DNA of 64,000 nucleotides, taken from positions 1,598 through 65,597 of the forward strand of contig CAJQIG010000005.1 in NCBI GenBank assembly GCA_905478415.1. The letters are read 5' to 3'. The translations under genes were made by a program, and so were the position numbers. How positions within the stretch are numbered: position 1 is the stretch's first letter; each line of letters begins with the position of its first letter. This document shows, piece after piece, positions 27,473 to 52,353 of the stretch. The stretch is from an uncultured Patescibacteria group bacterium. Lineage in GTDB: Bacteria > Patescibacteriota > Microgenomatia > UBA1400 > PJMF01. A model generated the notes under the pieces. It saw only the letters and a program-made list of their open reading frames with translations, had not been told where the DNA came from and made no database searches.

Positions 27473-27479
27473 ATTTTTG

Positions 27480-38092: not shown

Positions 38093-38208
38093 TGATGCAT
38101 CTTGAGCATAGTTACTGCCAGGAGGGTTGTGAGGTTCTATTAGAATAATTTACCTTTTATCCAGTTGGTTGGCCAAGACTGCTCGCTCGCGTTGCTCACT
38201 GTGTGATG

Positions 38209-38381
38209 CTAGCCATTGAGGGTGGGGAAAGAATCGAACTTTCCTCTCAACCATTCCACTCACAGGGAAGCATTCTGCCGCTGAACTAAAGGTGATAATA
38301 CTTTGCTCACCTTCTGGGTATCGAACCCAGGTCTCTTCCGTGGTGGGTCAAGTGGGACTCGAACCCACGACACCCTGCTTA
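38209..38381. repeat. attL: the left copy of the 173-bp direct repeat. It contains a 3' fragment of tRNA-Lys (anticodon loop to CCA, ~38341..38381) plus ~130 bp of tRNA-flanking sequence that includes tRNA-like T-arm motifs.
   Basis: Matches 47711..47883 except for 2 substitutions. These form a compensatory pair in the tRNA T-stem (CTGGG/CCCAG versus GTGGG/CCCAC). Confidence 0.8.
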
Positions 38382-38581
38382 GGTAGCACGACTTAGATGT
38401 TAATACTTGTCTATTAAAAAATATTATACAGGGACAGTTTTATTTTGTCACTGAATTGTACTTAATAAATCTTGAATGCAAGGGATTTAGTGCTCCCCGT
38501 AATGGATTCGATACGAACTGCAATACTCGAGGCAGGCACTAATAAGTGGCTATACACTGAAGAATTTTTAACTAGTCCAGT

Positions 38582-39895
38582 TTAAAAAACACCTCTTTCA
38601 TTTAGTCTTTCAACTGAAATACCCTTTTGTAGGTCTTTAAACCCAAAGCTCCAATGTATGTCACGTGTTTTTTCAGCTACATATTCTTTCAAATCCGATT
38701 CATTCGATAGTGTCATTGTGTCTATAGCAATATCCCACGACCTTTGAGCAAAAACAGAAGTTCGAGGTTCTGGCCACATTGTTCTAATGGCAGGGTCTAT
38801 ATAAACATTTTCCATACCATTAATTTCCATAGTGCCTAAAATACTACCGCTAAATCCAAGTTTTTCATACATTTTACCTGCACCACTCAAGGTAACATAT
38901 AGTTGTGCAGCAAACCAAGAAAGGTAAATCGTTGGAGCACCACCCTCACCTGTTTTAAGAACATTTGTTGATGTGGACATCAAACCATTTGCGAAAACTT
39001 GTTGAGAATCTATTCCTCCATCTCTTCTTTTCCAACTTAGATGAATCATTCCTTCACTAATTGAGTCCCAATGAGTTGCCCTCGATGGAAAAGATGCAAA
39101 TCTAGTTCTAAATTCGGATTCCTGAATGAGCGTTTCAATATCTAAAGGTCTAATAAGCTCAGTCTGAGGAAAAAAAGGCTGTAAAGTTATATCTAACATT
39201 GCTACATTAATACCTAAATTGTGTTGAAATATTTGTGACTTGAATGGTGGCAAAGTATCCCCGTCTTCAAGGTGGATTTTCTTTGCTTCATAGTTTTGCT
39301 TTTCAACCTCAATTTCGTTCTTTCTTTCTCTATCTGCACTCTTTAGAAAGCTTTTATAGTTTAACTCAGCTCGGTTCTTATTATTATTTCTAGAAATCTG
39401 AGCCTTTTCACGCTTGCCAAACAGAAGTTCAATGTGCTCTGGCGATGCGATGTTCACAGACTTCTTTGTGCTTCCAGTTCTAATCCAAATATTACTGTCA
39501 TTATGAGCATAGTAAGGTGTTTCATTTCCTTCATATATTCTTAAGAGAAGAAATACTTTACCATTGTTGTCATTTGTCTTGTGAACCCCAAAACTTGGAA
39601 TAGGGGATATGTTGCCAATAACTTGAGCAATGTACTCATCGTGCCTTCCATCATCAATACCCTCCCATTTTGTTGGTTCACCTGTTTTTCTGTTTTCTCT
39701 AATACCTACAACAATTACGCCACCGCGAGTATTTGCGAACGCACAAACCAGCTTTGCTAGTTTCATCTTATCTGGAAGCTCCTCCTTGTAATCCAATTGC
39801 ATGCCTTCTGAATTTTTTTCTTCGGCAAAACTAACAACATCATCAAAAGAAAATTCACTCAATTTTTTAGTCAATATCTCCATTTTAGTCTCCAA
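38582..39895 (-). CDS. AlbA_2 / Schlafen-like (divergent AAA-associated DNA/RNA-binding) domain protein with an unknown ~230-aa C-terminal domain
   Basis: N-terminal ...LDYKEELPDKMKLAKLVCAFANTRGGVIVVGIRENRKTGEPTKWEGIDD... matches the AlbA_2 core (E.lEFK..l......l.k.vcAFANt.GG.l.iGv.d.g...Gi). Confidence 0.6.
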   Translation of the reverse strand: METKMEILTKKLSEFSFDDVVSFAEEKNSEGMQLDYKEELPDKMKLAKLVCAFANTRGGVIVVGIRENRKTGEPTKWEGIDDGRHDEYIAQVIGNISPIPSFGVHKTNDNNGKVFLLLRIYEGNETPYYAHNDSNIWIRTGSTKKSVNIASPEHIELLFGKREKAQISRNNNKNRAELNYKSFLKSADRERKNEIEVEKQNYEAKKIHLEDGDTLPPFKSQIFQHNLGINVAMLDITLQPFFPQTELIRPLDIETLIQESEFRTRFASFPSRATHWDSISEGMIHLSWKRRDGGIDSQQVFANGLMSTSTNVLKTGEGGAPTIYLSWFAAQLYVTLSGAGKMYEKLGFSGSILGTMEINGMENVYIDPAIRTMWPEPRTSVFAQRSWDIAIDTMTLSNESDLKEYVAEKTRDIHWSFGFKDLQKGISVERLNERGVF

Positions 39896-40122
39896 TCCTT
39901 TTCAACTCATCTAAATATCTGTTAACTAACTCAGCCATTTTTTTCTGTATCCTAACCTACTAAGTCACCAGCTAAGTCATGAGTAAATTCAAATAAATCA
40001 ATGAAATTCTCGTTACTGCCAATGTTCATTGTAGCATCACTAGAATACGAGTTCATACCTTTAGGGTTAGGTAGCACGACTTAGATGTTAATACTTGTCT
40101 ATGGCTATATTATAGCGCGCTC

Positions 40123-40812
40123 TTAATTTTTTTTACGCAAAATGATTGTTTTTGTTTTATTTGAAGAAGTGTTACTTTTTAGATTATCGGAGTTTATTGA
40201 ACTATCATAGAAATTGCAACTGTCCAAATTACTAGTGTTTAATGTCTCAGCAAATTTGCTATTTGGAAAAAATTCAGTACAAAGCATTGCTAATCCATTT
40301 TTTTTATTAGCAAATGTTTGATAAACTTGATTATTTTCGCAGATGTTTTCAAGAGTATTTTTTATATAAGTATTAAGGTGATACTTCCAAACAACACCCT
40401 GACAAAAGGAATTTCCCAAACCCTCAAACACATCTATTACTAAACGAACTTGCAATTCATTTTGAACATATTGGTCATTTTTTAATGACTCAACTATGAG
40501 GAGATTTTCTTTATCTTGATACAAGTCAGAATAAGCTTCGGCAGTTTGCTCTTGGCTTAATTTAGCTTTTTGAAAGAGTTGGTTTTCTTCTTGAATTTTA
40601 ACTGACTTATCAGCTTTTTCACCAGCTTCTATTGCAATAATATTCGATTCTTTTGAAATGATATTTGATTCTTTAGCAATAGATTGAGATGCAATTAGGG
40701 AAATAATAGACACGATAAGAGCACATATGCTTATCGTTGTTGACTTGTTTTTTTTGAGGTACACAACTAGCTTATTTAAGCTGAGGTTTCCCTGCTTCTT
40801 CGAGTTTGGCAT
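40123..40812 (-). CDS. Hypothetical membrane-anchored, low-complexity (Asn/Ser/Lys-rich) protein
   Basis: A 229-aa ORF with an N-terminal TM. It overlaps the upstream DUF4145 gene by 41 bp, so it appears to be in an operon with the AlbA_2 and DUF4145 genes. Confidence 0.35.
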   Translation of the reverse strand: MPNSKKQGNLSLNKLVVYLKKNKSTTISICALIVSIISLIASQSIAKESNIISKESNIIAIEAGEKADKSVKIQEENQLFQKAKLSQEQTAEAYSDLYQDKENLLIVESLKNDQYVQNELQVRLVIDVFEGLGNSFCQGVVWKYHLNTYIKNTLENICENNQVYQTFANKKNGLAMLCTEFFPNSKFAETLNTSNLDSCNFYDSSINSDNLKSNTSSNKTKTIILRKKN

Positions 40813-41455
40813 TTAATTTTTTTCTTTTGGCTTCTAAAATAGCAGGTTGAACAAAGTAATAATCAAAAAGACTCTCAATCACATCGAGATTCCATTCTGC
40901 TTCACCTTCCTCCACGTCCACAATCCCACCAGTGTTTTTACTTTTGATTGGATGTGCTGCAAAGTTCCCAACCACACGAATAGCATCAATGCCTTGTGAT
41001 ATTGATGATGGTAGGCCTCCATTGTCTAATACTTGTTGAATTTCACTATCAAGGCTTCCTGCTTTAACATTGATTGTTTCAATTTTACCTGTTTCGCTAT
41101 GTAACACCTTGAGCTTTGCTTTTTCTCTAAGTATGTGTTGCAAACATCTTCTGCTTAAAGCTGCACTAGCCTTGGGACTATCCTGAAGGACGTTTGCTGC
41201 TTCTAAATATTCATGCGTGTATTCACTTGGGATTTCTTTTGAAATGGGACTTCTGGCTATGTTTTTAGGATACACTACTATATTGGAACTTCCTCCGCCA
41301 TCTTTTGGTATTTTTCTAAATCTTATTATTGCTTTACCACATTCAGGACAAATCATTGAACTTATATACCAGTGTGCATCAATATCTGAAATAGAGTTGC
41401 GAGATAGTTCAGAAAATGATTCGTGTATAGATGTTTTACAATGTGGACATATCAT
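40772..41455 (-). CDS. Zinc-ribbon + DUF4145 domain protein
   Basis: N-terminal CPHC...(x27)...CPEC is a four-Cys zinc ribbon. C-terminal ...AALSRRCLQHILRE...IDAIRVVGNFAAHPIKSKNTGGIVDVEEGEAEWNLDVIESLFDYYFVQP matches the DUF4145 pattern (R..lE..l......ld.iR..GN.aaH......i..eea...l..le.ll...f). Confidence 0.6.
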   Translation of the reverse strand: MICPHCKTSIHESFSELSRNSISDIDAHWYISSMICPECGKAIIRFRKIPKDGGGSSNIVVYPKNIARSPISKEIPSEYTHEYLEAANVLQDSPKASAALSRRCLQHILREKAKLKVLHSETGKIETINVKAGSLDSEIQQVLDNGGLPSSISQGIDAIRVVGNFAAHPIKSKNTGGIVDVEEGEAEWNLDVIESLFDYYFVQPAILEAKRKKLNAKLEEAGKPQLK

Positions 41456-42326
41456 GTTTATATTATACCAAAGTATTCCGAAAAGGTTTTACCTCGATAT
41501 AACAAAAATATTTTATTGCATAGTAAACAATACCCTATTATTATTCCCCTGCCATAAGTACTGGATAATTAACCTAGAGTAGCTATACATGATTAGTATC
41601 CAGTGGACTTAGCCTAGTCTGACTTTCTAGGTCGAATTAACACTGGGTTGTAGACTGGTGTTATTTATGGGCTCCCGCAGGACAATAATGACCCCCGTGC
41701 AAGTTCACTTATAGTCAAAACCATAAGCTATCAATCACGCTCAGCGCAGTCTCTAAGGTACAACAGACCTCTTCAATATATTTTTAATATTTCCGTCACC
41801 ACTATTTCCAGGGCCTAGTGGCAAGCCCTCGTATCCATTCTCGCGGTTAATTTAAAGACACCCGCTACTGCTAGAATAAAGCTCACCTGTGTCTGTGGTG
41901 GTAATAAAAAAACCACCAAAATAGGTTTCTCATGTTTTTCCTACTTGGTGGTTTCAAATGAAACACACTATATGTTTTTTCTCGCTGTAATAAAAAAATC
42001 CACTTAGACGTAGTTAGTATTGTGTATGCTGTGAGGCTACTAACCACGTCCAAATGGACTTTTCATACACATAACTATACCTACCCTCTATATTGTCCCA
42101 ATAAAGACCGTTTGTCAATAGATAAAAGCTTGATAAATCAGACAAAATAGACAATGATGAGCAAGTAGATAACTATGTAGTATTATAGGGCCTCACACCA
42201 ATGTTTATCTTGCTTTAGGTTTTGAGCTACTGGTAACACCCACACCCCCCTCTGTGAGAAAGGGGCCCTTTAACCCGAGTTGGACTACTAGTAGAAGGTA
42301 TTATAAGGATATTTTTTTTCCTTTTT

Positions 42327-44408
42327 TTACCACTCTTTTGGAGGATTTTCAAAAAGGTCTATTAATTCCAAAGCTCTTTTGCCAATATTTTTACCTTTTG
42401 AGCTCTTATAAATCATAATTCTCTTTTCAATTTCTTTAATTGGGTATAACTCGCCTAATGACTTAAGACCTAATGTTTCGTATGAACCTTTATTTGAAGA
42501 GTGAACCATACCTGTAAAACCATCTAATAATTTAATTAACCCTACATCATCTTGAACTAATTTTCGAATGTAATTCTTGACGCTCTTTTCATTTCCCCAC
42601 TTCAACCACCTGAATAATATTACATCTAGGCGAGTTTCATCTTCGAGTTTCCCATTCTTTACTTTCTTTTTTATTAATTTTAAAACCTCTTTTCTGAATT
42701 TTTCTACAAATTTTTTGTCAACTAATATATCTTTATCATTTTTTTCTATTTGCTCACCAAAGACATCAAGGAGTCTAAGAGAAAAATGAATATTTTGAGT
42801 TTCATTCATAGTGTTAAGAATAAAATCAGCACGTTTATCTTTTGAAACAATATTCTTTAGGGCCTGGTATGTCAAGCGACCCACTTGAGTGTTAAAGTCA
42901 TTTAACCCAAACAATCCACTCTGAGTATCTGAGACATGTCCATCAATATTCCATAAATTCACTATTATTTTTTGGATTTGTTCTTGGGTAATTTTTTCAA
43001 TTCTGTCTAATAACAAATCAATAGTCTTAGTCAGTTTCTTTTCTTTATCTAGTAATAAAAACTTTTCTTTCAAAGAATCTTCATTTGTTTTTGTAGAAAG
43101 AACTGCTTGCACCTCAACTTCTGAAACCTCATCTTCAGGCACACTTAGCTGAAAATAAAAATCGAATTTTTGCTCTGAACAAATTCTCTTTTGTAGACGC
43201 CATTCTCTTTCATAACTTGAACCACTCGATGAATCCATCTTCAACTGAGGAAAAAGTTCTCTTGTTATTCCATCTATTGACGACATAAATTCTTTAGGAA
43301 CGATTTTTTCATTATCTAAAATTTCTTTATAAATTTTTTGACGTTCTTCATCTCTTTCTCTTGAAGGAAAACTAAGTAATGAATCATCTTTATTCAAAAA
43401 AACATACTTGTTACCAGCAATAACATTATAATATGTTGGGACAAAAATTCTTAAAGCTTCTACCGCAATAAAATCCACTGGATTAACATCTTCCTTGTTA
43501 ACTACAGACCAATTTAGTTGAAGAGAACTCAAAAAACGATTAATATCTCTAATGGTAACAAACAAATTACTAAAACCATTTCTAAATATGGCTTCCCAAT
43601 GCTTCTGTTCTTCACTGTCAAAAACATATGTACCGTAAATAGAATCTAGTGTTTTATCTAATCCAGAAAACAAAACACCTCTTAGGTTCTGTTTATCTGG
43701 AACTGGGATTGTAAATGATACCTGAATAATTTTTTTAAGATAGTCATGTCCTTCAATTCCACGTTCTGTTATCCTACTCGCTACTTTTTCTCTATCATAT
43801 GCAAGTAAAAAAACCGTGTTTGGGAAGTTTGCTGTCATTTTAACCATCTTTAATATCAGTAATGTCTCCTGTTTATCTAGGCGGTCAATATCATCAATTA
43901 CTACCAAAATTTTCTTTCTCCGCCTTTTTAAAAGAACATCAATCGATTCTCTTATTTCAGTTAAAGTTTGAACACCACCATATTTTTTAATTTTTCCTGG
44001 TGAAAACTCAAAAAACCAAAGAAATTTTACAGAAGGATTAAACTCAAACATGGACTGTTTAAGTAGTTTTGAAGAATAATTTGTAAGTTTCTGCTTCAAT
44101 TCGTCTTTTTCACCATTTTTATCTAATGCAGCAGTAAATGAGTCAAAAAAATCGGAAATTAGTTGATTTTGACTAGAAAAATTCCAAGGATTGAACTTAA
44201 TAATAACGACATCTTTTCTTTTAAAATTTTCAAGAATTAAATTTATAAATGACGTTTTTCCTGCACCCCATATACCTTCAATACCAATAACATAGCTTTC
44301 TTTGCCTTTATAATTCTTAATTAGCTGTGCTACCTTTTCAGCTAATGGCGCCCTTTTTAAAACGTCTTCTTTACCTTTTTTTTGTATTGGTGAATCAGTT
44401 GATATCAT
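42327..44408 (-). CDS. KAP-family P-loop NTPase
   Basis: N-terminal Walker A GIEGIWGAGKTSFINLIL, followed by a long helical region with VVIDDIDRLDKQE (Walker B-like DD). This is typical KAP NTPase architecture and length (693 aa). Confidence 0.7.
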   Translation of the reverse strand: MISTDSPIQKKGKEDVLKRAPLAEKVAQLIKNYKGKESYVIGIEGIWGAGKTSFINLILENFKRKDVVIIKFNPWNFSSQNQLISDFFDSFTAALDKNGEKDELKQKLTNYSSKLLKQSMFEFNPSVKFLWFFEFSPGKIKKYGGVQTLTEIRESIDVLLKRRRKKILVVIDDIDRLDKQETLLILKMVKMTANFPNTVFLLAYDREKVASRITERGIEGHDYLKKIIQVSFTIPVPDKQNLRGVLFSGLDKTLDSIYGTYVFDSEEQKHWEAIFRNGFSNLFVTIRDINRFLSSLQLNWSVVNKEDVNPVDFIAVEALRIFVPTYYNVIAGNKYVFLNKDDSLLSFPSRERDEERQKIYKEILDNEKIVPKEFMSSIDGITRELFPQLKMDSSSGSSYEREWRLQKRICSEQKFDFYFQLSVPEDEVSEVEVQAVLSTKTNEDSLKEKFLLLDKEKKLTKTIDLLLDRIEKITQEQIQKIIVNLWNIDGHVSDTQSGLFGLNDFNTQVGRLTYQALKNIVSKDKRADFILNTMNETQNIHFSLRLLDVFGEQIEKNDKDILVDKKFVEKFRKEVLKLIKKKVKNGKLEDETRLDVILFRWLKWGNEKSVKNYIRKLVQDDVGLIKLLDGFTGMVHSSNKGSYETLGLKSLGELYPIKEIEKRIMIYKSSKGKNIGKRALELIDLFENPPKEW

Positions 44409-44485
44409 ATTGATATACTATCACAAAACTTTTTCAAATTTTTACTTTCTTAGTATTAACATGACCTGTTGTATAATAAAGAAAA

Positions 44486-44606
44486 CTCGCGGCTATTATT
44501 ACACCTTTTTTAGGTGAGTTTTTACTTGTCGTTAATGATAGGCAGCCCTATCTGTCAAACGACAAGTCGTAGCCGCGAGGAAGTCTAGGATGGGCTGCCT
44601 TTTTTT
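44486..44606 (+). promoter_or_regulatory. Candidate cis-regulatory leader RNA. It has nested perfect inverted repeats (10-bp, 10-bp, 6-bp and 4-bp stems) plus an alternative 8-bp pairing and a U7 tract. A putative -10 (TATAAT 44472..44477) lies upstream. The downstream gene starts at 44629.
   Basis: P1 is CTCGCGGCTA (44486..95) pairing with TAGCCGCGAG (44570..79). P2 is CACC-ttttttta-GGTG. P3 is ACTTGTCGTT (44524..33) pairing with AACGACAAGT (44558..67). The inner hairpin is GATAGG-cagc-CCTATC. GGCAGCCC (44541..48) is complementary to GGGCTGCC (44592..99), which is followed directly by TTTTTTT. Confidence 0.45.
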
Positions 44607-44628
44607 GAAAAGCCCAAGGAAGGAACTC

Positions 44629-45303
44629 ATGATTCAACTCGGGCTATTTTTTTTAGGAATTTTTGTATACACATTTGGTCTTAATCTTTTTGCACAATAC
44701 CGCAGAGGACAAATGCAATTTGGTGGCGTACTTGGAATTTTTGCCGCCTGTTGGGCTTTGTTCACTAACATTTATTTGTTCCTGGTAATGATTCCTTTAT
44801 TCTTCATTTTCCGCAAACTTGCTAGTTATTTAGTCTTCCTCTTTTTCAAGAAACAATATCCCAAAGCAGTGAACCTTGATTGGAAAACATTTCAGTTACG
44901 AGAAACATACAGAGAAAATAAAAAACCTGAAAACTTACTAGACGGCAAATGTCTTGAGGGCATGGTGAGTAAAATGGAAGCAAAAAATAAAGAGCTGGAA
45001 GAATTTTGTGACAACGCATACAAGGTCACAGGTATTAAAGAAACTTTGCAAAAACATGATGAAAAGAAGGAGAGTCTGAAAAGTATCTATAGTCAGGTTC
45101 TAACTAGTTATGGAGGAATTTTTACCGCGAAAGCAATAATTACTGCTCCTTACTACCTCAACAAATATCTTGAAACAATCAATAAACCTGGTCATTTCTT
45201 AAAACCAAATACTGAAATCAAAATGTTTGGTGATATTGACCCTAAAGAGAAACAGTTTCTGGGAAGTCTCAATGAGTCATTTGGATTCCCTGACTTAATA
45301 TAA
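44629..45303 (+). CDS. Hypothetical membrane protein. The start at 44629 (RBS AAGGAAGG 44616..44623) is preferred over the ORF-track start at 44590.
   Basis: Two N-terminal TM helices, then a soluble Lys/Glu-rich domain. There is a good Shine-Dalgarno sequence 5 bp upstream of the Met at 44629. Confidence 0.4.
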   Translation: MIQLGLFFLGIFVYTFGLNLFAQYRRGQMQFGGVLGIFAACWALFTNIYLFLVMIPLFFIFRKLASYLVFLFFKKQYPKAVNLDWKTFQLRETYRENKKPENLLDGKCLEGMVSKMEAKNKELEEFCDNAYKVTGIKETLQKHDEKKESLKSIYSQVLTSYGGIFTAKAIITAPYYLNKYLETINKPGHFLKPNTEIKMFGDIDPKEKQFLGSLNESFGFPDLI

Positions 45304-45320
45304 CAACCAAGAAAGGAAGC

Positions 45321-45647
45321 ATGAGCAAGAATTACTTAGCGCTTAGCACTGTTGCAACAGTGTCATTAGTAGGAATCCTAGCTATACTTTTCTACACAAC
45401 CTTCGTGGTTAGACCTAGAGAACAAGCACTACAAAAGCATATTGCAGTTATGCAGGCTTGCAATCAGCAACGTCTATACATGACTTGGGAGCTAAAAAAC
45501 TCACTAAATGATGTGAGCGAGTTTGCTCCTCAAGAAGAAAAAGACCTTATAAACCAGACATTGGATAATGCTACAGGATATTTTCATAGCTCTGATTTTT
45601 TTGATACATGTTTCGAAAAAACTATAGAGGAATGGAATTTAAATTAA
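45321..45647 (+). CDS. Small hypothetical membrane-anchored protein
   Basis: A 108-aa ORF with one N-terminal TM. Confidence 0.35.
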   Translation: MSKNYLALSTVATVSLVGILAILFYTTFVVRPREQALQKHIAVMQACNQQRLYMTWELKNSLNDVSEFAPQEEKDLINQTLDNATGYFHSSDFFDTCFEKTIEEWNLN

Positions 45648-46006
45648 TTTGTTTCAATTGGCTTACTTTTTAGTATGTAGGCTTCATGAACTTTAAAACC
45701 ATTAACTTTCTCATTTTGAAGGTGGAATCCTTCTTTGTATTTTAAAAATAGTTCAGTTATGTGGTCTTGGACAGGGAATATTCCAATTCTTGCAATAGAT
45801 TTATTTTCTTCTTCACTTAGATTTTCTCTCATTTTAGAGGCGACAAGGTTAAAGATTTCTGTTCTATTTTCGTCAGTAATCCAGTCAGCAGAAACTAATA
45901 CTGACCACTTATCTATGAAATCATCCATTCTCATTATGGCAAAAAGAGTAAAGTTGCCTTTTTGAGCTTCAATTTCGTTAGTAATTAATTTAAATTTTTC
46001 TACCAT
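45644..46006 (-). CDS. Hypothetical protein. Its start overlaps the stop of the upstream HEPN gene.
   Basis: A 120-aa ORF. It overlaps the 46000..46458 gene by 7 bp (operon). No minimal-nucleotidyltransferase motif is seen. Confidence 0.35.
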   Translation of the reverse strand: MVEKFKLITNEIEAQKGNFTLFAIMRMDDFIDKWSVLVSADWITDENRTEIFNLVASKMRENLSEEENKSIARIGIFPVQDHITELFLKYKEGFHLQNEKVNGFKVHEAYILKSKPIETN

Positions 46007-46458
46007 CTTTTCTTTAAGTATACAAGAATCCCATTTGAATTATTAGTAAGAGCATTGTAAACAGATTTAACTTTTGATTCAGTCCAGTAATTTGGTTGAT
46101 ATCGCATATTTACCCATTGCTGGTTTCCTGGCAGAACATAATCTTGCGTGGCAGCAGACCATGATGCAAAATAGGGATTATTTCCTACATTTGTGAACTT
46201 GTTCGATAATCCGGATAATATTTGAAGTTTGTCTAGTTCATGAGTTCTGAAAATGGTTCGTATGTTGTTATCAACGCTGCTATCATCAGCTGGGTAACTT
46301 ACCAGGTCAAGTTTCTTACAAACGCAAGCCTTAAGGGCACATTCCAACACAAAGCCCATTGTGTAGCCTGCATAATCATAATCCCCTGCTTCAATTAAAA
46401 TTTTTGCAGCCTTTATTCTCGCTCGTGTTATCTTTTTTAGTTCGGTGCGTGTTGCCAT
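46000..46458 (-). CDS. HEPN-domain protein (putative RNase/abortive-infection-type)
   Basis: The N-terminal helix pair ARIKAAKILIEAGDYDYAGYTMGFVLECALKACVCKKL is typical of HEPN. A candidate R-x(4-6)-H motif is present in RTIFRTHELDKL. Confidence 0.45.
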   Translation of the reverse strand: MATRTELKKITRARIKAAKILIEAGDYDYAGYTMGFVLECALKACVCKKLDLVSYPADDSSVDNNIRTIFRTHELDKLQILSGLSNKFTNVGNNPYFASWSAATQDYVLPGNQQWVNMRYQPNYWTESKVKSVYNALTNNSNGILVYLKKRW

Positions 46459-46479
46459 TACAATATTACGATTTTATCA

Positions 46480-47559
46480 TTATTTTGATATGTTTTGATG
46501 TTCAAATGCTTGTTTGTCACTAACCATAATTTCAATGATTAATTTCCCTTTTTTTCTACATTCTTTTATTGTAAAACGCTTATCATTTTTTATCCCTGAT
46601 TCATCTAGTCTTCGTTGCTCCAGGTCAAGGCGAGTTTCTGAACTTTCATCTTTCAACCACAAAGGGTCGTACATACGCTGTACGTCACTTTTGCCCTTTG
46701 TTGAAAATTGTCGGTAAATGTTTAGAGTAACATTGATACCTTTGTGACCCATTACTTCTTTGACGTCTATCGGTTTTGCCCCAGCATCAATCATTGCTGT
46801 AGTTTTAATATGCCTAAAACGGTGCAAGGTAATTCTTTTCTTGATACCATGTTCTTTTAAAGATTCTCTCCAGGATTTTGCAACACCTTCTGGGTTTGCA
46901 GGGAAAACCTTTTCCCAGTTTGTCCTATTTTTGAGAGTATCGATATATTTGGGAGGTATTATCATTATTTCCCTCCTTCTCCCCTTTCTTAGAACCTCAA
47001 AATAAGGTTCAGGCACATCGAAGTGAAGGTCATCACCTGTGACATGTGTAAGCTCCTCTTTTCTTGCACCGGTTAGAAGTAGCATGATGAGATACAGTCT
47101 TCGCTCATTCTTTCTTTCTCTGACTAGTTTATTATCCGTTGGTTTTATTTCATTACTTTTATTCGCTAGGCTAAGCGCTAATTCAGGTGAAATCATGTCC
47201 TTTTTCCTATTATCAACAATGACGAAAGGGACCTGCCTGGAAAAGTTATGGCTAATGTGTTGGTACAAAAAGAGCCAGTTAATGAAAGAGCGAATCATTC
47301 GTATTTCAGTGTTCAGAGATGAAGGCTTCCATGGTTTTTTTAGATTATCATTCTTGTGACAACCATACCTTCTCAGCTTTTCGAGGTAAGCTATGATGTT
47401 TTTGGTTATCAAGGATTGATTCCCAAATTCTCGGGTAAATCTGTGAAAGAATTCACGTTTCTTTTTTTGTGTCTTGGGAGACTCATTTTTTCGCAGAGGA
47501 ACATCGATGCAGTACTCCTTTAGGAGTGTGTGGAGTTTTTTCCCTTGGATTGCTACCAT
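46480..47559 (-). CDS. Tyrosine recombinase / phage-type integrase
   Basis: C-terminal catalytic motifs: ...LLLTGARKEEL (Arg), ...ITLHRFRHIKTTAMIDAGAKPIDVKEVMGHKGINVTLNIYRQ (H-x-x-R ... H ... Y). It is adjacent to tRNA-Lys. Confidence 0.85.
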   Translation of the reverse strand: MVAIQGKKLHTLLKEYCIDVPLRKNESPKTQKKKREFFHRFTREFGNQSLITKNIIAYLEKLRRYGCHKNDNLKKPWKPSSLNTEIRMIRSFINWLFLYQHISHNFSRQVPFVIVDNRKKDMISPELALSLANKSNEIKPTDNKLVRERKNERRLYLIMLLLTGARKEELTHVTGDDLHFDVPEPYFEVLRKGRRREIMIIPPKYIDTLKNRTNWEKVFPANPEGVAKSWRESLKEHGIKKRITLHRFRHIKTTAMIDAGAKPIDVKEVMGHKGINVTLNIYRQFSTKGKSDVQRMYDPLWLKDESSETRLDLEQRRLDESGIKNDKRFTIKECRKKGKLIIEIMVSDKQAFEHQNISK

Positions 47560-47710
47560 AACAGAATTTACCTAGATGTGTATCTAAGTACTTTCTGTTG
47601 TTTCTTTTCCAAGGCGGGACGCTATGGGTAATGGACCCCGATATTGCGTTATCCCCATAAAGGGAGGCGATGCCAAACAACTTAATGCTAATCTGGACTA
47701 GCTCATGAGG

Positions 47711-47883
47711 CTAGCCATTGAGGGTGGGGAAAGAATCGAACTTTCCTCTCAACCATTCCACTCACAGGGAAGCATTCTGCCGCTGAACTAAAGGTGATAA
47801 TACTTTGCTCACCTTCTGGGTATCGAACCCAGGTCTCTTCCGTGGTGGGTCAACTGGGACTCGAACCCAGGACACCCTGCTTA
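47711..47883. repeat. attR: the right copy of the 173-bp direct repeat. It overlaps the 3' portion of the intact tRNA-Lys.
   Basis: See attL. Confidence 0.8.
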
Positions 47884-47919
47884 AGAGGCAGGTGCTCTAA
47901 CCGACTGAGCTATTGACCC
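47843..47919 (-). tRNA. tRNA-Lys (anticodon CTT), CCA encoded. It is the integration target of the island.
   Basis: The reverse complement reads GGGTCAATAGCTCAGTCGGTTAGAGCACCTGCCTCTTAAGCAGGGTGTCCTGGGTTCGAGTCCCAGTTGACCCACCA. The anticodon loop is CTCTTAA. Confidence 0.88.
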
Positions 47920-49230: not shown

Positions 49231-50406
49231 ATGGTAGTATGGCTTGGTATGCAGCATATACATCGACTATTTTCGCTGTTACGTACATATAAATGGTACG
49301 TATTTTTTTTCTTGCTTGGGATGGTACTGATTGCCTTTTTTACTTTTTCAGTGGTAAAGTTTGGTTCTGTTTTTGTGGCTAGTAAACAAAACAAAGAAGT
49401 TGTGCAACCTGTGTCTCTGGTGACTCCAACGCCCTCTCCTCCACCCGACCCTCTTCGTCCATATACAATTTTACTGTTAGGATATGGTGGCTTTGGTCAT
49501 GATGGAGGGAGTCTGACAGACACCATGCTTTTAGCATACATCGTTCCTCGAGAACAACGAGCCACTTTATTTTCAATTCCTCGTGATCTTTGGGTTGAGT
49601 TACCAATTAAGACTGAAGAAAAAAAATGGGGAAAGATTAACTCAGCCTTTGCTATTGGTAATGATGATCGTAAATATACTCATAAACCTGAATTATTTAC
49701 TGGTGTAGGCGGCGGTGGCCGAATGGCGAAAGCTGTTGTGTCTGAAATTTTAGGGATTGAAGTTGATTACTTTGCAGCTATCGATTTTTCTGGCTTCACT
49801 CGCGCACTTGATTCTTTGGGGTCACTTTCAATTTCTGTGCCAATTACGTTTGATGACAAATTTTATCCAGTAGCAGGTAAAGAAGATGAAACTTGTGATA
49901 AGTCAGAAGAAGATATTGCAGCTTTGACAGCTACTATGAGTGGGTACAAACTGGAGCAAGAGTTTACTTGCCGGTATGAAGAACTACACTTTGATGCAGG
50001 TGTTCAGCCAATGGATGCTGAGACGGCACTCAAGTTTGTACGTTCTCGTCACTCAGAACAATATGGAGGTGATTTTGGTCGTTCACAGCGGCAGCAGGCA
50101 TTACTAGTTGCACTCAAGAACAAATTGTTTTCGCCAGCTGGTTTTGTAAAACTTGTTCCCACCGTTTTACAGCTGACTAACTATGTACAAACTGATATTA
50201 CGAGCGAAAAAATCAGAGATATTTTGACCACACATGAAGGTTTGAGAGACTATACCTTTAGCACAGTTCGTCTCACCGATAGCAAAGAGGACAATGTTTT
50301 ACAGCAGGGATATAGTAGCGATCGCCAGTACATTTTGATGCCAACTTCTGGTGAGGGAGACTGGACGAGTGTGCGTGAGTTTTTTGGACGAGAAGTTATC
50401 GAGTAA
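49231..50406 (+). CDS. LytR-CpsA-Psr (LCP) family cell-envelope phosphotransferase
   Basis: N-terminal TM. YTILLLGYGGFGHDGGSLTDTMLLAYIVPREQRATLFSIPRDLWVEL is the LCP core (nillLG.D.......sDtiml......k....lSIPRDt.v). Confidence 0.75.
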   Translation: MVVWLGMQHIHRLFSLLRTYKWYVFFFLLGMVLIAFFTFSVVKFGSVFVASKQNKEVVQPVSLVTPTPSPPPDPLRPYTILLLGYGGFGHDGGSLTDTMLLAYIVPREQRATLFSIPRDLWVELPIKTEEKKWGKINSAFAIGNDDRKYTHKPELFTGVGGGGRMAKAVVSEILGIEVDYFAAIDFSGFTRALDSLGSLSISVPITFDDKFYPVAGKEDETCDKSEEDIAALTATMSGYKLEQEFTCRYEELHFDAGVQPMDAETALKFVRSRHSEQYGGDFGRSQRQQALLVALKNKLFSPAGFVKLVPTVLQLTNYVQTDITSEKIRDILTTHEGLRDYTFSTVRLTDSKEDNVLQQGYSSDRQYILMPTSGEGDWTSVREFFGREVIE

Positions 50407-50414
50407 CCACTTGG

Positions 50415-50690
50415 TTAGTTTTTTTGGCCCATTTCTGCAAGCCAGGCATCACTGAGGACTACTCCACCTTCGACTCTGGTAAGAAAATTCAGTTCGACTA
50501 GCTTGTCGATACTTCCAGATTGAGAAGTCATTGCCTCAGGAACGGGAGTGTTTGGGTGTGCTAAACAGTACTCCATAATTCCTTGTAAGACCCTACCGTC
50601 AGTCTCCATATTTAGGTTAGTAAATTCGTCGGAAAGAGTGCCGTTGGTTGCGTCAAAATCCATTCCTGTACCTGGCTGTGGTTCTAGCAT
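50415..50690 (-). CDS. Small hypothetical protein
   Basis: A 91-aa ORF. Confidence 0.3.
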   Translation of the reverse strand: MLEPQPGTGMDFDATNGTLSDEFTNLNMETDGRVLQGIMEYCLAHPNTPVPEAMTSQSGSIDKLVELNFLTRVEGGVVLSDAWLAEMGQKN

Positions 50691-50799
50691 AGTTCCTTTA
50701 TTACTTATGTATACTCAAAGTATACCAGATGTTTTTAAAACTAAATTGAAATATAAACTCAGTACTTATAGTTTTGGAGTCCCATATCCAAGAATTTTT

Positions 50800-51336
50800 T
50801 TAATATGGTAAATCCCCCACATTAGGTCTCACTACTAATATTTGAGGGGGAACATTATTTTGAGTGCCTCTTATGGCAACAGAGCTTTTGTCATATCTAT
50901 TATTATGTTTAATGATTGATAGCTCAGGAACAAGATCAGATTTTTCATTTTTACTAAATAATTTTTCGCATTCTTCTTTTGTTCGTTTAATAGAACTATC
51001 TCCAGATTCAGAACCTGGAATGACCAGATAAGATAATTGGGCACCTTCTATTTGAGTTTTAAACTCAGTTATTAGTTGTTCTACATAACTTCGACCACTT
51101 TTATGAACTAAAGAAATGAAACTTTTTCCTTCCTTTGTTATTCCCCATAGTGCAATAACAATGCAATCAACTACTTGTGTAGCTTTTATTGTTCTTTTTA
51201 TCTCTTTTGTTTCATTATCAAACGTGACTAGAGATGATTTATCGGTTAGTAGGTTTTCGCTGCCTGCTCTAAAAAAACTATGATATAACTCAGCATTTAC
51301 TTGCGCATTATTTCCAGCGGTATCAAAAGATGACAT
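50800..51336 (-). CDS. Hypothetical protein
   Basis: A 178-aa ORF with no motif recognised. Confidence 0.35.
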   Translation of the reverse strand: MSSFDTAGNNAQVNAELYHSFFRAGSENLLTDKSSLVTFDNETKEIKRTIKATQVVDCIVIALWGITKEGKSFISLVHKSGRSYVEQLITEFKTQIEGAQLSYLVIPGSESGDSSIKRTKEECEKLFSKNEKSDLVPELSIIKHNNRYDKSSVAIRGTQNNVPPQILVVRPNVGDLPY

Positions 51337-51427
51337 ATCTTCGATATTACCATACTAATTTATATTAGACAAAGCAAGGGTTTTCAACCATTCAAATGAT
51401 GGCACTGTTGTACTATGTGGGAGTTAG

Positions 51428-52261
51428 TTATTTAGAGAATAAATATTTGTTGGCAACTAAAATTGATTCTGCTAAATATTTTTTATAAGTGTCTTTGTCT
51501 TTTTGATAAATATAGAACCAAAAACCAACAAATAGCTTTGTCATAGAAATCCACCAAAAAAATCTATATTCTCTTTCCTTAGTAAATTCTAAGCCACATT
51601 GGCTGACAAATGTGTTCCATTTTTCTTTCGGAACATAGTCCCATGCAAACTGCCCAATATCTCTCAATGGATCTGACATTCGCACATCATCCCAATCTAC
51701 AATATATATTTTCTCTTCCTTTAATATAAAGTTAGAAATATTTGGGTCAGCATGTATTGGTGTAGTTTCATCAGAAATAGCTTTAGGTTTTCCTTCAATT
51801 AACCTATCCAAGTGTTTTGTGACGGACTCATCTTTAGAAGAAGTATCTATTTCTTTTTTCCATTTTTCTACTTCTCTAAGAAATCTATTTGAAGTTTCCT
51901 TGTATTCTGAAGGAGTTTCAAGTTCTAAAATTGCTTTTAATTTTTCATCAGAATGGTATTTACAAATTAATTTTGCAATTTCTTGATAGTTTCTATTTAG
52001 CCATGCAGTGCTTGGTTGTTCTCCCGAGATATACTCTTGAACAATGATCTTGCTATCTGCATATAAGATTTGAGGTGTAATGTTTGTATCTGCCAATCTT
52101 AATAATGAGGTATTTACCGATTCAACTTTAATAAATACTTTATCTTTTTCAAGAACGCCAATATAGCTAGTTTTTGATTTACCAGCTGGACTCTCCTCTA
52201 GCTTCCAGTTGCCTTTTTTAATCTTACTATTAAGAACCTGTCTTATTTCTTCAATATTCAT
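51428..52261 (-). CDS. Aminoglycoside-phosphotransferase/choline-kinase-like (APH family) small-molecule kinase
   Basis: Catalytic loop PIHADPNISNFIL (HxDxxxxN). DFG-equivalent IVDWDDVRMSDPLRDIGQF (D-W-[DE] ... DP..D). Confidence 0.65.
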   Translation of the reverse strand: MNIEEIRQVLNSKIKKGNWKLEESPAGKSKTSYIGVLEKDKVFIKVESVNTSLLRLADTNITPQILYADSKIIVQEYISGEQPSTAWLNRNYQEIAKLICKYHSDEKLKAILELETPSEYKETSNRFLREVEKWKKEIDTSSKDESVTKHLDRLIEGKPKAISDETTPIHADPNISNFILKEEKIYIVDWDDVRMSDPLRDIGQFAWDYVPKEKWNTFVSQCGLEFTKEREYRFFWWISMTKLFVGFWFYIYQKDKDTYKKYLAESILVANKYLFSK

Positions 52262-52353
52262 ATATAAAAAATTATAACAGGTTTGAACTTTACCCTAAGG
52301 ATAAGTTTATGTGTCCTAATGGAGTGTGAGATCACCTAAAAAGAAAGAGATTG

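What the first reader, a model, noticed from the sequence alone, without database searches (positions are those of the whole stretch)
38209..47883. tRNA-Lys-integrated ~9.7 kb island with a 173-bp att repeat, an integrase and a cargo made of defence-associated domains
A 173-bp direct repeat (38209..38381 / 47711..47883, 2 mismatches) brackets an AT-rich block. The inner repeat boundary falls in the tRNA-Lys(CTT) anticodon loop, the classic crossover site of tRNA-targeting tyrosine integrases, and the integrase gene sits beside the intact tRNA. The cargo is not phage structural genes. It is a set of domains that recur in antiphage islands: an AlbA_2/Schlafen-like protein, a zinc-ribbon-DUF4145 protein, a KAP P-loop NTPase and a HEPN protein. 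It also holds unexplained non-coding structure. None of these matches a named defence system architecture that I recognise, so this is the best candidate for an undescribed system in the window. The two repeat mismatches are a compensatory pair inside the tRNA T-stem (CTGGG/CCCAG versus GTGGG/CCCAC). The element-borne tRNA fragment therefore derives from a different but functional tRNA-Lys allele, which marks attP versus attB ancestry.
Basis: partly seen in the sequence, partly recalled or inferred. Interest (0 to 1): 0.8.

Follow-up and report, generated by a model that had tools for sequence, protein, structure and literature searches.

The report
tRNA-Lys integrated antiphage defence island
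A 9.3-kb mobile island, inserted by its own integrase next to a lysine tRNA gene of an uncultured marine bacterium, carries several independent antiphage genes from families that are already described, so it is a clean but ordinary defence island and not a new immune system.

Summary
A 174-nt direct repeat (38208-38381 / 47710-47883, two mismatches) brackets a low-GC block next to tRNA-Lys(CTT). The integrase has the full catalytic set, including the tyrosine. Metagenome contigs from the same population supply an empty site (L006, with a private SNP) and a P-O-P' junction (L019), which is either a circular or tandem form or an assembly mis-join.

Three parts of the interpretation fail. First, the T-stem alleles place the crossover 3' of the T-stem, not in the anticodon loop. 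Second, the cargo does match named defence families. The zinc-ribbon-DUF4145 protein is a RAZR/PD-T7-4 homologue. The KAP NTPase matches PADLOC's PifA model end to end. The AlbA_2 protein is a prokaryotic Schlafen with the Ex4DxK motif. Third, the "non-coding structure" is most simply two tandem terminator-like hairpins.

The cargo genes look like independent modules, not one system. A HEPN-like protein with a conserved 120-aa partner is an uncharacterised two-gene module.

Left unexplained: the 132 nt of the repeat downstream of the tRNA fold as a circularly permuted, YrlA-like tRNA mimic, and a 36-nt arm duplication flanks the Schlafen gene.

Verdict: new member of a known kind.

The parts
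38208..38381 (.). Left copy of the 174-nt att repeat (P-O-B' junction). It holds the element-type tRNA-Lys 3' fragment (38343-38381, T-stem GTGGG/CCCAC) and a copy of the 132-nt region that lies downstream of the tRNA.
38379..38414 (.). P-arm 36-mer, copy 1. It overlaps the repeat by the three bases TTA.
   Evidence: family D2, 100% identical to 40067-40102. Metagenome scan.
38582..39883 (-). Prokaryotic Schlafen (pSlfn): an N-terminal SLFN/AlbA_2 nuclease domain with motif E26-x4-D31-x-K33, followed by an uncharacterised C-terminal domain (about residues 225-433). The ORF could also start at the TTG at 39895.
   Evidence: Pfam 2.3e-19. Motif invariant or nearly so in 27 homologues. AlphaFold2 pLDDT 85.5, with Foldseek hits to SLFN13/14/5/11 and the SAMD9 tRNase.
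40067..40102 (.). P-arm 36-mer, copy 2. It is internal to the island and has no adjoining tRNA sequence. With copy 1 it brackets the 1,688-bp Schlafen module.
40123..40812 (-). 229-aa protein with one N-terminal transmembrane segment and no known function. It overlaps the RAZR-like gene by 41 nt.
   Evidence: It is absent beside RAZR homologues in L053 and L054.
40772..41455 (-). RAZR / PD-T7-4 homologue: a Cys4 zinc ribbon (C3, C6, C36, C39) plus a DUF4145 (HEPN) RNase domain with R160-x7-H168.
   Evidence: PADLOC PD-T7-4 1.8e-21. Pfam DUF4145 1e-11. Aligned to PDB 9y9c with R/H on RAZR R146/H154. Residue positions. Literature: PMC13017515.
41901..42063 (-). Two tandem intrinsic-terminator-like hairpins (41987-42063 and 41901-41954). 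Each is followed by UUUUUUUAUUAC. They lie downstream of the KAP gene.
   Evidence: Fold z-score -4.07 on the minus strand against -0.96 on the plus strand. Sliding windows confine the signal to about 41840-42119. Coordinates.
42327..44408 (-). KAP-family P-loop NTPase, PifA-like. Walker A G45-T52, Walker B LVVIDD at 168-173, and a long C-terminal region.
   Evidence: Pfam KAP_NTPase 2.7e-49. PADLOC PifA 1.8e-88 over profile positions 6-707 of 720. 24% identity to an annotated plasmid pifA. Motifs.
44590..45303 (+). 237-aa protein with a hydrophobic N-terminal region (multi-pass membrane-like), function unknown.
45321..45647 (+). 108-aa protein with one hydrophobic N-terminal segment, function unknown.
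45644..46006 (-). 120-aa conserved partner of the HEPN-like protein. It overlaps that gene by 7 nt. No domain was found.
   Evidence: 63-78% identical partners in two other genomic contexts.
46000..46458 (-). HEPN-like 152-aa protein, in an apparent operon with the integrase upstream and the 120-aa partner downstream.
   Evidence: Pfam HEPN 9e-4, below the cut-off. 39 of 53 family members hit Pfam HEPN. AlphaFold2 pLDDT 94.9, and the top PDB fold matches are all HEPN domains but weak. The family has 1,313 representatives.
46480..47559 (-). Tyrosine integrase with catalytic residues R166, K192, H246, R249, H272 and Y282.
   Evidence: Pfam 5.7e-13. Alignment to Tn1549 Int and IntI4. Residue positions. 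Only one homologue below 1e-10 among 5.8 billion proteins.
47560..47709 (.). P' arm of the element. Its last 22 nt resemble the sequence next to the same tRNA-downstream region in another genome (L011).
47710..47883 (.). Right copy of the 174-nt att repeat (B-O-P' junction). It forms the 3' part of the intact tRNA plus the region downstream of it.
47843..47919 (-). Intact tRNA-Lys(CTT) with the host-type T-stem CTGGG/CCCAG.
47719..47841 (-). Permuted tRNA-like unit inside the repeat. In order: anticodon-stem strand, T-arm, closed 7-bp acceptor-like hairpin, D-arm, anticodon-stem strand (47768-47841), then a T-arm minihelix (47719-47764). A duplicate lies at 38217-38339.

Best explanation
This is a small integrative element of about 9.3 kb of unique DNA. 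Its own tyrosine integrase inserted it next to tRNA-Lys(CTT). The element's attP carries a copy of the tRNA from the anticodon loop to the 3' end, plus the 132-nt structured region downstream of it. Recombination with the chromosomal site therefore leaves an intact tRNA and an intact downstream region, and creates the 174-nt direct repeat.

Strand exchange took place 3' of the T-stem, inside the 144 identical bases. This step is inferred from the allele pattern.

The cargo is a set of independently acting antiphage genes, not one system:
- A prokaryotic Schlafen, expected to cleave tRNA when its C-terminal domain senses a phage.
- A RAZR/PD-T7-4 homologue, a zinc-finger HEPN RNase. The E. coli protein is switched on by assembling around phage portal-like rings.
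- A PifA-like KAP P-loop NTPase.
- A HEPN-like protein with a conserved 120-aa partner, with a toxin-antitoxin-like layout.
- Three small membrane proteins of unknown role.

Shown here: the insertion, the empty site, the catalytic residues and the family memberships at sequence or fold level. Inferred: present-day excision, and every biochemical activity of the cargo.
For: Repeat and tRNA.

Empty site: L006 joins both flanks through a single copy of the repeat. It carries a C at the position equivalent to window 38288/47790. That base occurs in none of the other junction copies read, all of which have A, so L006 is a real haplotype and not a walk through a collapsed repeat.

P-O-P' junction: contig L019.

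Allele pattern: attB has CTGGG, attP has GTGGG, the intact tRNA has CTGGG and the fragment has GTGGG.

Integrase: catalytic set R166, K192, H246, R249, H272, Y282. Its only homologue (60% identity) also abuts a tRNA-Lys 3' end.

Composition: island GC is 34.7% against 39.3% in the flanks.

Cargo families. RAZR alignment to PDB 9y9c with R/H conserved and literature. Schlafen motif and fold. KAP and Schlafen defence literature.

Modularity: Schlafen homologues occur alone or inside a Shedu-containing defence island. The HEPN-like pair occurs without an integrase in two other contexts. RAZR homologues occur alone in viral contigs.
Against: - No excisionase, replication or transfer gene was recognised, so the island may no longer move on its own.
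- L019 has no private SNP. It could be an assembler mis-join across the 144-nt identical segment.
- L006 differs by a SNP, so it shows a never-occupied (or separate) lineage. It does not show an excision product.
- The KAP protein is only 24% identical, over 59% of its length, to an annotated plasmid pifA.
- The HEPN call for the 152-aa protein is weak. The query is below the Pfam cut-off, the arginine of the Rx4-6H motif is not conserved in the family, and Foldseek E-values are 0.047 or higher.
- No function was tested experimentally.
Confidence: 0.8

Rival explanations
1. The island is a fixed, decayed remnant of a prophage or satellite that can no longer excise. The empty site is simply an older lineage, and the P-O-P' contig is an assembly chimera.
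For: The only integrase homologue sits in a prophage-like element that carries an Ltp-type superinfection-exclusion lipoprotein and an O-like replication initiator. No Xis, replication or packaging gene was found in the island. L019 has no private SNP. L006 carries a SNP, so it is not an excision product of this strain.
Against: All nine ORFs are intact. The integrase keeps all six catalytic residues. The repeat is perfect over 144 nt. The island sequence is essentially identical (at most 2 differences per contig) in contigs from samples of several dataset prefixes. A P-O-P' contig does exist.
Confidence: 0.25
2. The cargo genes together make up one undescribed multi-gene defence system.
For: The genes are tightly packed. 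Two pairs overlap (RAZR-like with the 229-aa gene, HEPN-like with the 120-aa gene). Five genes have no confident named-system match.
Against: The genes lie on both strands in at least four transcription units, and two terminator-like hairpins sit between two of those units. RAZR, KAP NTPases and Schlafens each protect as single genes in published work. Their homologues, and the HEPN-like pair, occur elsewhere without the other cargo. The Schlafen module is set apart by its own 36-nt repeats.
Confidence: 0.06
3. It is a phage satellite (P4-, PICI- or PLE-like) that depends on a helper phage for transfer and carries defence genes in a cargo hotspot.
For: Its size (about 9-10 kb), the tRNA-adjacent integrase and the defence cargo resemble P4-like satellites with defence hotspots. 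That comparison rests on my own knowledge of the satellite literature. The closest integrase is phage-associated.
Against: Pfam, NCBIfam and PHROGs found no primase/replicase, AlpA/Xis-like regulator, capsid-size redirection, small terminase or other hijacking gene. IMG/VR holds no relative of the integrase beyond a partial 28% match.
Confidence: 0.08
4. The repeat is a generic dispersed repeat or an assembly artefact, and the block is ordinary chromosome.
For: None was found.
Against: There are only two copies in the window, and one related copy among the species-representative genomes. The same junctions were assembled independently in more than 20 contigs from several samples. An empty site exists.
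Confidence: 0.01

Closest known systems
tRNA-integrated genomic islands and defence islands mobilised by tyrosine integrases, for example P4-like elements with defence hotspots (comparison from my own knowledge of the literature)
   Same: The integrase lies at the tRNA-proximal end. A direct repeat made from the tRNA 3' part restores the gene. GC is lower than in the host. The cargo is made of swappable antiphage genes. Related strains have an empty site.
   Different: The att identity is unusually long (174 nt) and runs 132 nt past the tRNA. The crossover maps 3' of the T-stem even though the identity starts in the anticodon loop. No replication, regulatory or hijacking genes were found. The integrase lineage is almost an orphan, with one homologue in 5.8 billion proteins.
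RAZR (PD-T7-4), the ring-activated zinc-finger RNase of E. coli (PMC13017515)
   Same: An N-terminal Cys4 zinc ribbon plus a C-terminal DUF4145/HEPN domain. The R-x7-H pair aligns with the catalytic R146/H154. Similar length (227 against 219 aa). PADLOC model hit at 1.8e-21.
   Different: The sequence is distant (phmmer 2.6e-7 to 9y9c), with an insertion of about 17 residues in the HEPN domain. The gene overlaps a downstream 229-aa membrane-protein gene that is not found beside the two other homologues examined. The phage trigger is unknown.
PifA of the F plasmid and other KAP P-loop NTPase defence proteins (PMC13552941)
   Same: A KAP_NTPase domain with Walker A and B motifs, followed by a long uncharacterised C-terminal region. 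It matches the PADLOC PifA profile end to end.
   Different: Only about 24% identical to an annotated plasmid pifA, and only over the NTPase part. A simple hydropathy scan found no hydrophobic transmembrane-like segment. No pifC-like neighbour was recognised.
Prokaryotic Schlafen (pSlfn) defence nucleases (PMC13056530)
   Same: The SLFN/AlbA_2 domain carries the catalytic Ex4(E/D)xK motif, and its fold matches SLFN13/14/5/11. A non-nuclease domain is fused to it, as in 97% of pSlfns. One homologue lies in a defence island.
   Different: The C-terminal domain (about residues 225-433) matches nothing in Pfam or in PDB folds. It would therefore fall among the pSlfns fused to unannotated domains (about 17% of the family). 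The family is rare, with about 30 full-length clusters.
YrlA-type bacterial Y RNAs, which are tRNA mimics resembling circularly permuted tRNAs (bioRxiv 10.1101/312249). This comparison applies to the 132-nt part of the att repeat.
   Same: The order of elements is the same: anticodon-like stem formed by the two ends, T stem-loop, acceptor-like stem closed by a loop, D stem-loop. T- and D-loop sequences are canonical. The acceptor-like stem has 7 bp, as reported for the M. smegmatis YrlA.
   Different: No Rfam family matches, even at E up to 10. No Ro60/TROVE gene is among the ORFs of 300 aa or more in the window. The unit lies directly 3' of a tRNA gene and is followed by a second T-arm minihelix. 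Only two sequences are known.

Membership tests
Tyrosine recombinase / phage integrase (PF00589) | Catalytic R-K-H-R-H/W-Y set, including the nucleophilic tyrosine | tested here: met
   R166, K192, H246, R249, H272 and Y282. Y282 aligns with the tyrosine position of Tn1549 Int and IntI4.
Tyrosine recombinase / phage integrase (PF00589) | Domain model scores above the curated cut-off | tested here: met
   49.4 bits against a cut-off of 27.1. PHROG 1 integrase at 7.7e-29.
tRNA-integrated genomic island | Direct repeat made from the tRNA 3' part at both ends, with an intact tRNA at one end | tested here: met
tRNA-integrated genomic island | Empty target site in a close relative | tested here: met
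   L006 joins both flanks through one repeat copy and carries a private SNP.
tRNA-integrated genomic island | Excised circular form (attP junction) | tested here: inconclusive
   L019 has P-O-P' with the element allele. It has no private SNP, so a mis-join or a tandem copy cannot be excluded.
Integrases that cross over in the anticodon loop (the sublocation classes of tRNA-targeting integrases, recalled from the literature) | Strand exchange in the 7-nt anticodon loop, so that everything 3' of it in the intact tRNA comes from the element | tested here: not met
   The intact tRNA keeps the host T-stem allele and the fragment keeps the element allele. Only 3 of the 7 loop bases are shared by attP and attB.
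RAZR / PD-T7-4 | N-terminal Cys4 zinc ribbon | tested here: met
   CPHC at residue 3 and CPEC at residue 36. The PADLOC PD-T7-4 profile covers residues 3-169.
RAZR / PD-T7-4 | DUF4145 (HEPN) domain with the catalytic Arg/His pair (R146/H154 in E. coli RAZR) | tested here: met
   Pfam DUF4145 at 45.2 bits against a cut-off of 23.1. R160 and H168 align to R146 and H154 of PDB 9y9c.
RAZR / PD-T7-4 | RNase activity triggered by assembly around ring-shaped phage proteins | not testable with these tools
   Needs biochemistry and phage assays.
PifA / KAP NTPase defence proteins | KAP_NTPase domain with Walker A and B motifs | tested here: met
   Pfam 168.4 bits. GIWGAGKT at residue 45 and LVVIDD at residue 168.
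PifA / KAP NTPase defence proteins | Full-length similarity to PifA | tested here: inconclusive
   The PADLOC PifA profile matches at 1.8e-88 over positions 6-707 of 720. An annotated plasmid pifA is only 24% identical over 59% of the query.
PifA / KAP NTPase defence proteins | Exclusion of T7-like phages | not testable with these tools
   Needs infection assays.
Prokaryotic Schlafen (pSlfn) | SLFN/AlbA_2 nuclease domain with the Ex4(E/D)xK motif | tested here: met
   Pfam 70.5 bits. E26-GMQL-D31-Y-K33, with E26 and K33 invariant and D31 at least 90% conserved in 27 homologues.
Prokaryotic Schlafen (pSlfn) | Fold similar to the Schlafen RNase lobe | tested here: met
   Foldseek hits to SLFN13, SLFN14, SLFN5, SLFN11 and the SAMD9 tRNase, E from 4e-4 to 1.6e-2, on a model with pLDDT 85.5.
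HEPN superfamily (the 152-aa protein) | HEPN domain model or fold | tested here: inconclusive
   The query scores 19.8 bits against a cut-off of 22. 39 of 53 family members hit Pfam HEPN at E up to 0.01, best 2.2e-8. The top seven PDB fold matches are all HEPN domains, but with E of 0.047 or higher and TM scores mostly 0.3-0.5.
HEPN superfamily (the 152-aa protein) | Conserved Rx4-6H catalytic motif | tested here: inconclusive
   R67-x5-H73 is present in the query. Only H73 is invariant in the family, and the arginine positions vary.
HEPN-MNT toxin-antitoxin pairs | Partner is a minimal nucleotidyltransferase | tested here: not met
   The 120-aa partner has no Pfam, NCBIfam, PADLOC or PHROG hit. 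I see no GSx10DxD-type motif in its sequence.
Phage satellites (P4-like, PICI, PLE) | Replication and helper-hijacking genes (primase/replicase, regulator, packaging or capsid-redirection) | tested here: not met
   None was detected in any of the nine ORFs.
YrlA / bacterial Y RNA (the 132-nt att segment) | Permuted tRNA-like topology: AC stem, T arm, closed acceptor stem, D arm | tested here: met
   The RNAalifold consensus has 4 compensatory pairs between two genomes. The halves re-joined in silico are called as a canonical cloverleaf by ARAGORN in both genomes.
YrlA / bacterial Y RNA (the 132-nt att segment) | Match to a curated Rfam model | tested here: not met
   With E up to 10, the only tRNA-related match to this tRNA-like unit is a sub-threshold tRNA match (20.5 bits), and no Y-RNA family matched.
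YrlA / bacterial Y RNA (the 132-nt att segment) | Encoded near an rsr (Ro60/TROVE) gene | tested here: not met
   No TROVE domain is in any ORF of 300 aa or more in the 64-kb window. The rest of the genome was not seen.

The most novel reading that the evidence does not exclude
The 132 nt that the island copies along with the tRNA-Lys 3' half may not be filler. They may encode a conserved, circularly permuted tRNA mimic with YrlA-like topology and a trailing T-arm minihelix, co-transcribed with tRNA-Lys. On this reading the element carries its own copy so that integration preserves this RNA, and the T-arm-like hairpins, rather than the anticodon loop, may be what the integrase recognises. It would be a new class of tRNA-linked tRNA mimic without a nearby Ro60 gene, possibly in a Patescibacteria-like host, and an integrase whose target is a tRNA-like RNA gene downstream of the real tRNA.
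Probability: 0.15. Interest if true: 0.65.

Novelty: new member of a known kind. Interest (0 to 1): 0.38.

Why it matters
This is a compact, well-bounded example of how antiphage genes travel. One integrase and a long att site move a RAZR homologue, a KAP NTPase, a Schlafen nuclease and a HEPN-like pair in an uncultured marine bacterium. The occupied state, the empty state and a possible circular state can all be seen in environmental data.

It extends three recently characterised defence families to a host far from the model organisms. It supplies divergent sequences for testing what those proteins sense. It also flags several candidates for testing: the HEPN-like protein with its 120-aa partner, the Schlafen C-terminal domain and three small membrane proteins. 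The 120-aa partner, the Schlafen C-terminal domain and two of the membrane proteins have no database match, while the HEPN-like protein and the 229-aa membrane protein have only weak ones.

The allele pattern gives an unusually direct natural map of where an integrase did not cut. The att region holds a tRNA-like RNA that deserves its own look.

Tried and rejected
- **Large structured RNA in the 871-nt gap (41456-42326).** The whole region has z = -4.07 on the minus strand only. Sliding windows confine the signal to two hairpin-plus-U-run elements. There was no Rfam hit and no blastn match in phages or plasmids. Idea rejected.
- **CTTAGRT as an integrase arm-site motif.** It has 16 matches in the window against 17.5 expected. 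Not supported.
- **The 229-aa membrane protein as a conserved RAZR partner.** It is absent next to the two RAZR homologues in viral contigs.
- **Other elements sharing the 36-nt P arm.** The metagenome scan found only this same island. No contig lacks the Schlafen module.
- **Relatives of the integrase.** The protein database holds one homologue. IMG/VR holds only a partial 28% match.
- **More copies of the 132-nt tRNA-like region.** One genome among the species representatives, none in viral contigs, and none in other held loci with covariance model R1.
- **A/C SNP as a crossover marker.** It is uninformative, because both island copies and attP carry A. It only marks L006 as a separate lineage.
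- **Host identity.** No source names were returned for any window protein.
- **AFDB fold search.** The library was unavailable.

Full report
**1. Observation**

The direct repeat is real. Exact comparison gives 174 nt, 38208-38381 against 47710-47883, with mismatches only at 38352/47854 and 38368/47870. tRNA-Lys(CTT) lies at 47843-47919 on the minus strand.

Read on the minus strand, the repeat starts at the last three bases of the anticodon loop. It runs through the T-arm and acceptor end (41 nt) and continues about 132 nt beyond the tRNA. The two mismatches are the two partners of the first T-stem pair: GTGGG/CCCAC in the left fragment and CTGGG/CCCAG in the intact gene.

The 9,328 bp between the repeats are 34.7% GC, against 39.3% on both sides. 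Every contig that holds the repeat hits only two places in the window. A 25-mer from it occurs in one genome out of 185,579 species representatives. It is therefore not a generic repeat.

**2. Is it an insertion, and does it move?**

Exact-protein look-ups of the flanking genes returned more than 20 independently assembled contigs of the same population.

- *Empty site.* Contig L006 joins the left flank (204-aa kinase-like gene) to the right flank (240-aa gene) through a single repeat copy and an intact tRNA-Lys. The island is absent. L006 carries a C at the position equivalent to window 38288/47790. All the other junction copies read have A there. A base that is unique to this contig, and linked on both sides to flank-specific sequence, cannot come from a mis-walk through a collapsed repeat. 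The empty site is therefore a real haplotype. The same SNP shows that L006 belongs to a separate lineage and is not an excision product of this strain.
- *P-O-P' junction.* Contig L019 joins the end of the Schlafen gene and the P arm, through one repeat copy, to the P' arm and the integrase gene. It has no private SNP, so a circular or tandem form is likely but an assembler mis-join across the 144 identical bases cannot be excluded.
- *Contig breaks.* Many contigs end at or inside the repeat. This is what a repeat longer than the assembly k-mer produces.

**3. Where was the crossover?**

The four att forms align cleanly. attB (L006) has the CTGGG/CCCAG T-stem and attP (L019) has GTGGG/CCCAC. 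In the window the intact tRNA (B-O-P') has the host allele and the fragment (P-O-B') has the element allele.

A crossover in the anticodon loop would give the opposite pattern. A crossover in the T-loop would give mismatched hybrid stems. Exchange therefore happened 3' of the T-stem, somewhere in 38208-38351 / 47710-47853.

In addition, attP and attB share only three of the seven anticodon-loop bases. That does not fit an overlap region in the loop.

The element-borne fragment comes from a different, functional tRNA-Lys allele: the only homologous integrase (60% identity) sits about 160 nt from a tRNA-Lys 3' end with the same GTGGG/CCCAC stem. The fragment also marks attP ancestry. Calling the loop the crossover site was wrong.

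**4. Integrase**

The protein has 359 aa and scores 49.4 bits on Pfam Phage_integrase. Its catalytic set is R166, K192, H246, R249, H272 and Y282. The tyrosine aligns with that position in Tn1549 Int and in IntI4.

The lineage is nearly an orphan. Only one homologue scores below 1e-10 among 5.8 billion proteins, and IMG/VR holds only a partial 28% match. That one homologue lies in a prophage-like element with an Ltp-type exclusion lipoprotein and an O-like replication initiator.

**5. Cargo**

(a) *40772-41455, minus strand: RAZR homologue.* The protein has two CxxC pairs and a DUF4145 domain. PADLOC assigns PD-T7-4 at 1.8e-21. PD-T7-4 has been renamed RAZR, a zinc-finger HEPN RNase that is activated by assembling around phage portal-like rings, with catalytic residues R146 and H154 (PMC13017515). 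The window protein aligns to the RAZR chain of PDB 9y9c, with R160 and H168 on those residues.

(b) *42327-44408, minus strand: PifA-like KAP NTPase.* It is a KAP P-loop NTPase (2.7e-49) with Walker A and B motifs, and it matches PADLOC's PifA profile end to end (1.8e-88). It is only about 24% identical to an annotated plasmid pifA. KAP NTPases with unknown C-terminal regions were recently shown to protect against phage (PMC13552941).

(c) *38582-39883, minus strand: prokaryotic Schlafen.* The SLFN/AlbA_2 domain carries E26-x4-D31-x-K33, which is the Ex4(E/D)xK catalytic motif of prokaryotic Schlafens (PMC13056530). The motif is conserved in 27 homologues. The AlphaFold2 model (pLDDT 85.5) matches SLFN13/14/5/11 and the SAMD9 tRNase. 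The C-terminal domain matches nothing.

(d) *46000-46458 and 45644-46006, minus strand: HEPN-like pair.* A 152-aa protein overlaps its 120-aa partner by 7 nt, directly downstream of the integrase gene. The query is sub-threshold for Pfam HEPN. However, 39 of 53 members of its family (1,313 representatives) hit HEPN, and the best fold matches are all HEPN proteins, though weak. Only H73 is invariant. The same pair, with a 63-78% identical partner, occurs without an integrase in two other contexts. One is next to tRNA-Ile in a 47%-GC genome and the other is next to clpB. The partner is not an MNT-type nucleotidyltransferase.

(e) *Three membrane proteins.* They have 229, 237 and 108 aa and no hit beyond one weak PHROG match of unknown function (1.1e-3) for the 229-aa protein. 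The 229-aa gene overlaps the RAZR-like gene, but it is absent beside two RAZR homologues in viral contigs.

**6. One system or several?**

The genes lie on both strands in at least four transcription units. Homologues of the Schlafen, the RAZR-like protein and the HEPN-like pair stand alone elsewhere. One Schlafen homologue sits in a defence island with Shedu (SduA_C), PLD, PD-(D/E)XK and DUF2726 genes. Published work shows single-gene activity for the three named families. I conclude that the island is a mosaic of independent modules.

**7. The non-coding structure**

The 871-nt gap folds much better than shuffled sequence on the minus strand only (z = -4.07 against -0.96). Sliding windows confine the signal to about 41840-42119. 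That stretch holds two hairpins, 41987-42063 (a 27-bp stem) and 41901-41954. Each is followed by UUUUUUUAUUAC on the coding strand of the upstream KAP gene. I read them as tandem intrinsic terminators. There is no Rfam, phage or plasmid match.

**8. Unexplained features**

- *36-nt P-arm duplication.* The 36 nt next to the left repeat (38379-38414) recur perfectly at 40067-40102, without any tRNA sequence. Together they bracket the 1,688-bp Schlafen module. This is not the pattern of tandem accretion at a tRNA, where the internal repeat would be the tRNA fragment. No variant lacking the module was found, and no other element with this arm.
- *Permuted tRNA-like unit.* The 132 nt downstream of the tRNA read, in order: anticodon-stem strand, T-arm, 7-bp acceptor-like hairpin closed by an 11-nt loop, D-arm, complementary anticodon-stem strand, and then a T-arm minihelix. 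When the two halves are re-joined in silico, ARAGORN calls a canonical cloverleaf, both here and in the only other genome with this region (L011, about 80% identical). Four base pairs differ by compensatory changes between the two. This topology is the one described for YrlA-type bacterial Y RNAs (bioRxiv 10.1101/312249). Against membership, no Rfam model matches and no Ro60 gene is in the window.
- *P' arm ancestry.* The last 22 nt of the island's P' arm resemble the sequence next to this region in L011. This suggests that attP was copied from the tRNA-Lys locus of an earlier host.

**9. Host**

No taxon name could be retrieved. The window encodes archaeal-type PGI/PMI, GlmU and GlmM, a DUF359-containing PPAT-like protein and a LytR-CpsA-Psr protein. 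One Schlafen homologue is labelled Patescibacteria. These are hints of a Patescibacteria-like host. L011, in contrast, is labelled Pseudomonadales. The question is not settled.

**10. Verdict**

The island reading is correct and is now backed by an empty site and a candidate circular junction. Three claims are not supported: the crossover site, the "undescribed system" claim and the non-coding structure. This is a new member of a known kind, a tRNA-integrated defence island. It has an unusually long att site, a nearly orphan integrase, one uncharacterised two-gene module and an intriguing tRNA mimic inside the att site.

Noticed in passing
window 47719-47841 (minus strand); duplicate at 38217-38339; L011 3693-3833: Directly 3' of tRNA-Lys lies a circularly permuted tRNA-like unit (T-arm, closed 7-bp acceptor hairpin, D-arm, with the ends pairing as an anticodon stem) followed by a T-arm minihelix. 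It is about 80% conserved, with 4 compensatory pairs, in one other genome. The topology is that of YrlA Y RNAs, but there is no Rfam hit and no Ro60 gene in the window.
   Followed up: partly
window 38379-38414 and 40067-40102: A perfect 36-nt duplication of the element's P arm brackets the 1,688-bp Schlafen module. The internal copy has no tRNA sequence next to it. Its origin is unexplained, and no variant without the module was found.
   Followed up: partly
window 47689-47709 versus L011 3677-3703: The last 22 nt or so of the island's P' arm resemble the chromosomal sequence next to the tRNA-downstream region in another genome. This suggests that attP was captured from an earlier host's tRNA-Lys locus.
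   Followed up: no
L040 9718-10812: The HEPN-like gene and its 119-aa partner recur at 82% nucleotide identity over 861 nt in a 47%-GC genome. They lie about 200 nt downstream of tRNA-Ile(TAT), with no integrase nearby. A third copy sits next to clpB (L047, L048). The pair behaves as a mobile two-gene module.
   Followed up: partly
L012 1-11239: The only integrase homologue (60% identity) starts about 160 nt from a tRNA-Lys 3' end. It heads a prophage-like element that carries a CAP-domain protein, an Ltp-type superinfection-exclusion lipoprotein and an O-like replication initiator.
   Followed up: partly
L038 4505-10643: A Schlafen homologue (50% identity) lies in a dense defence neighbourhood: PLD/NgoFVII-like, Shedu SduA_C, PD-(D/E)XK and DUF2726 genes, with a Pif1-type helicase further downstream.
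   Followed up: no
window 12120-21013, 49231-50406 and 61933-62886: The host encodes archaeal-type bifunctional PGI/PMI, GlmU and GlmM, a DUF359-containing PPAT-like protein and a LytR-CpsA-Psr protein. This set hints at a Patescibacteria-like host. The one related genome found is labelled Pseudomonadales.
   Followed up: partly
window about 50500-52500: A second low-GC patch (31-34%) abuts tRNA-Gln (52353-52424). It contains an APH-family kinase-like gene and small ORFs. It may be another small insertion at a tRNA.
   Followed up: no
window 26954-28694: Six tRNA genes are clustered here (Gly, Phe, Val, Leu, Leu, Arg). This looks like ordinary tRNA clustering.
   Followed up: no
window 41456-41890: About 430 nt upstream of the RAZR-like gene are non-coding, somewhat GC-richer than their surroundings, and not unusually structured. 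This could be a long leader or a decayed gene.
   Followed up: partly
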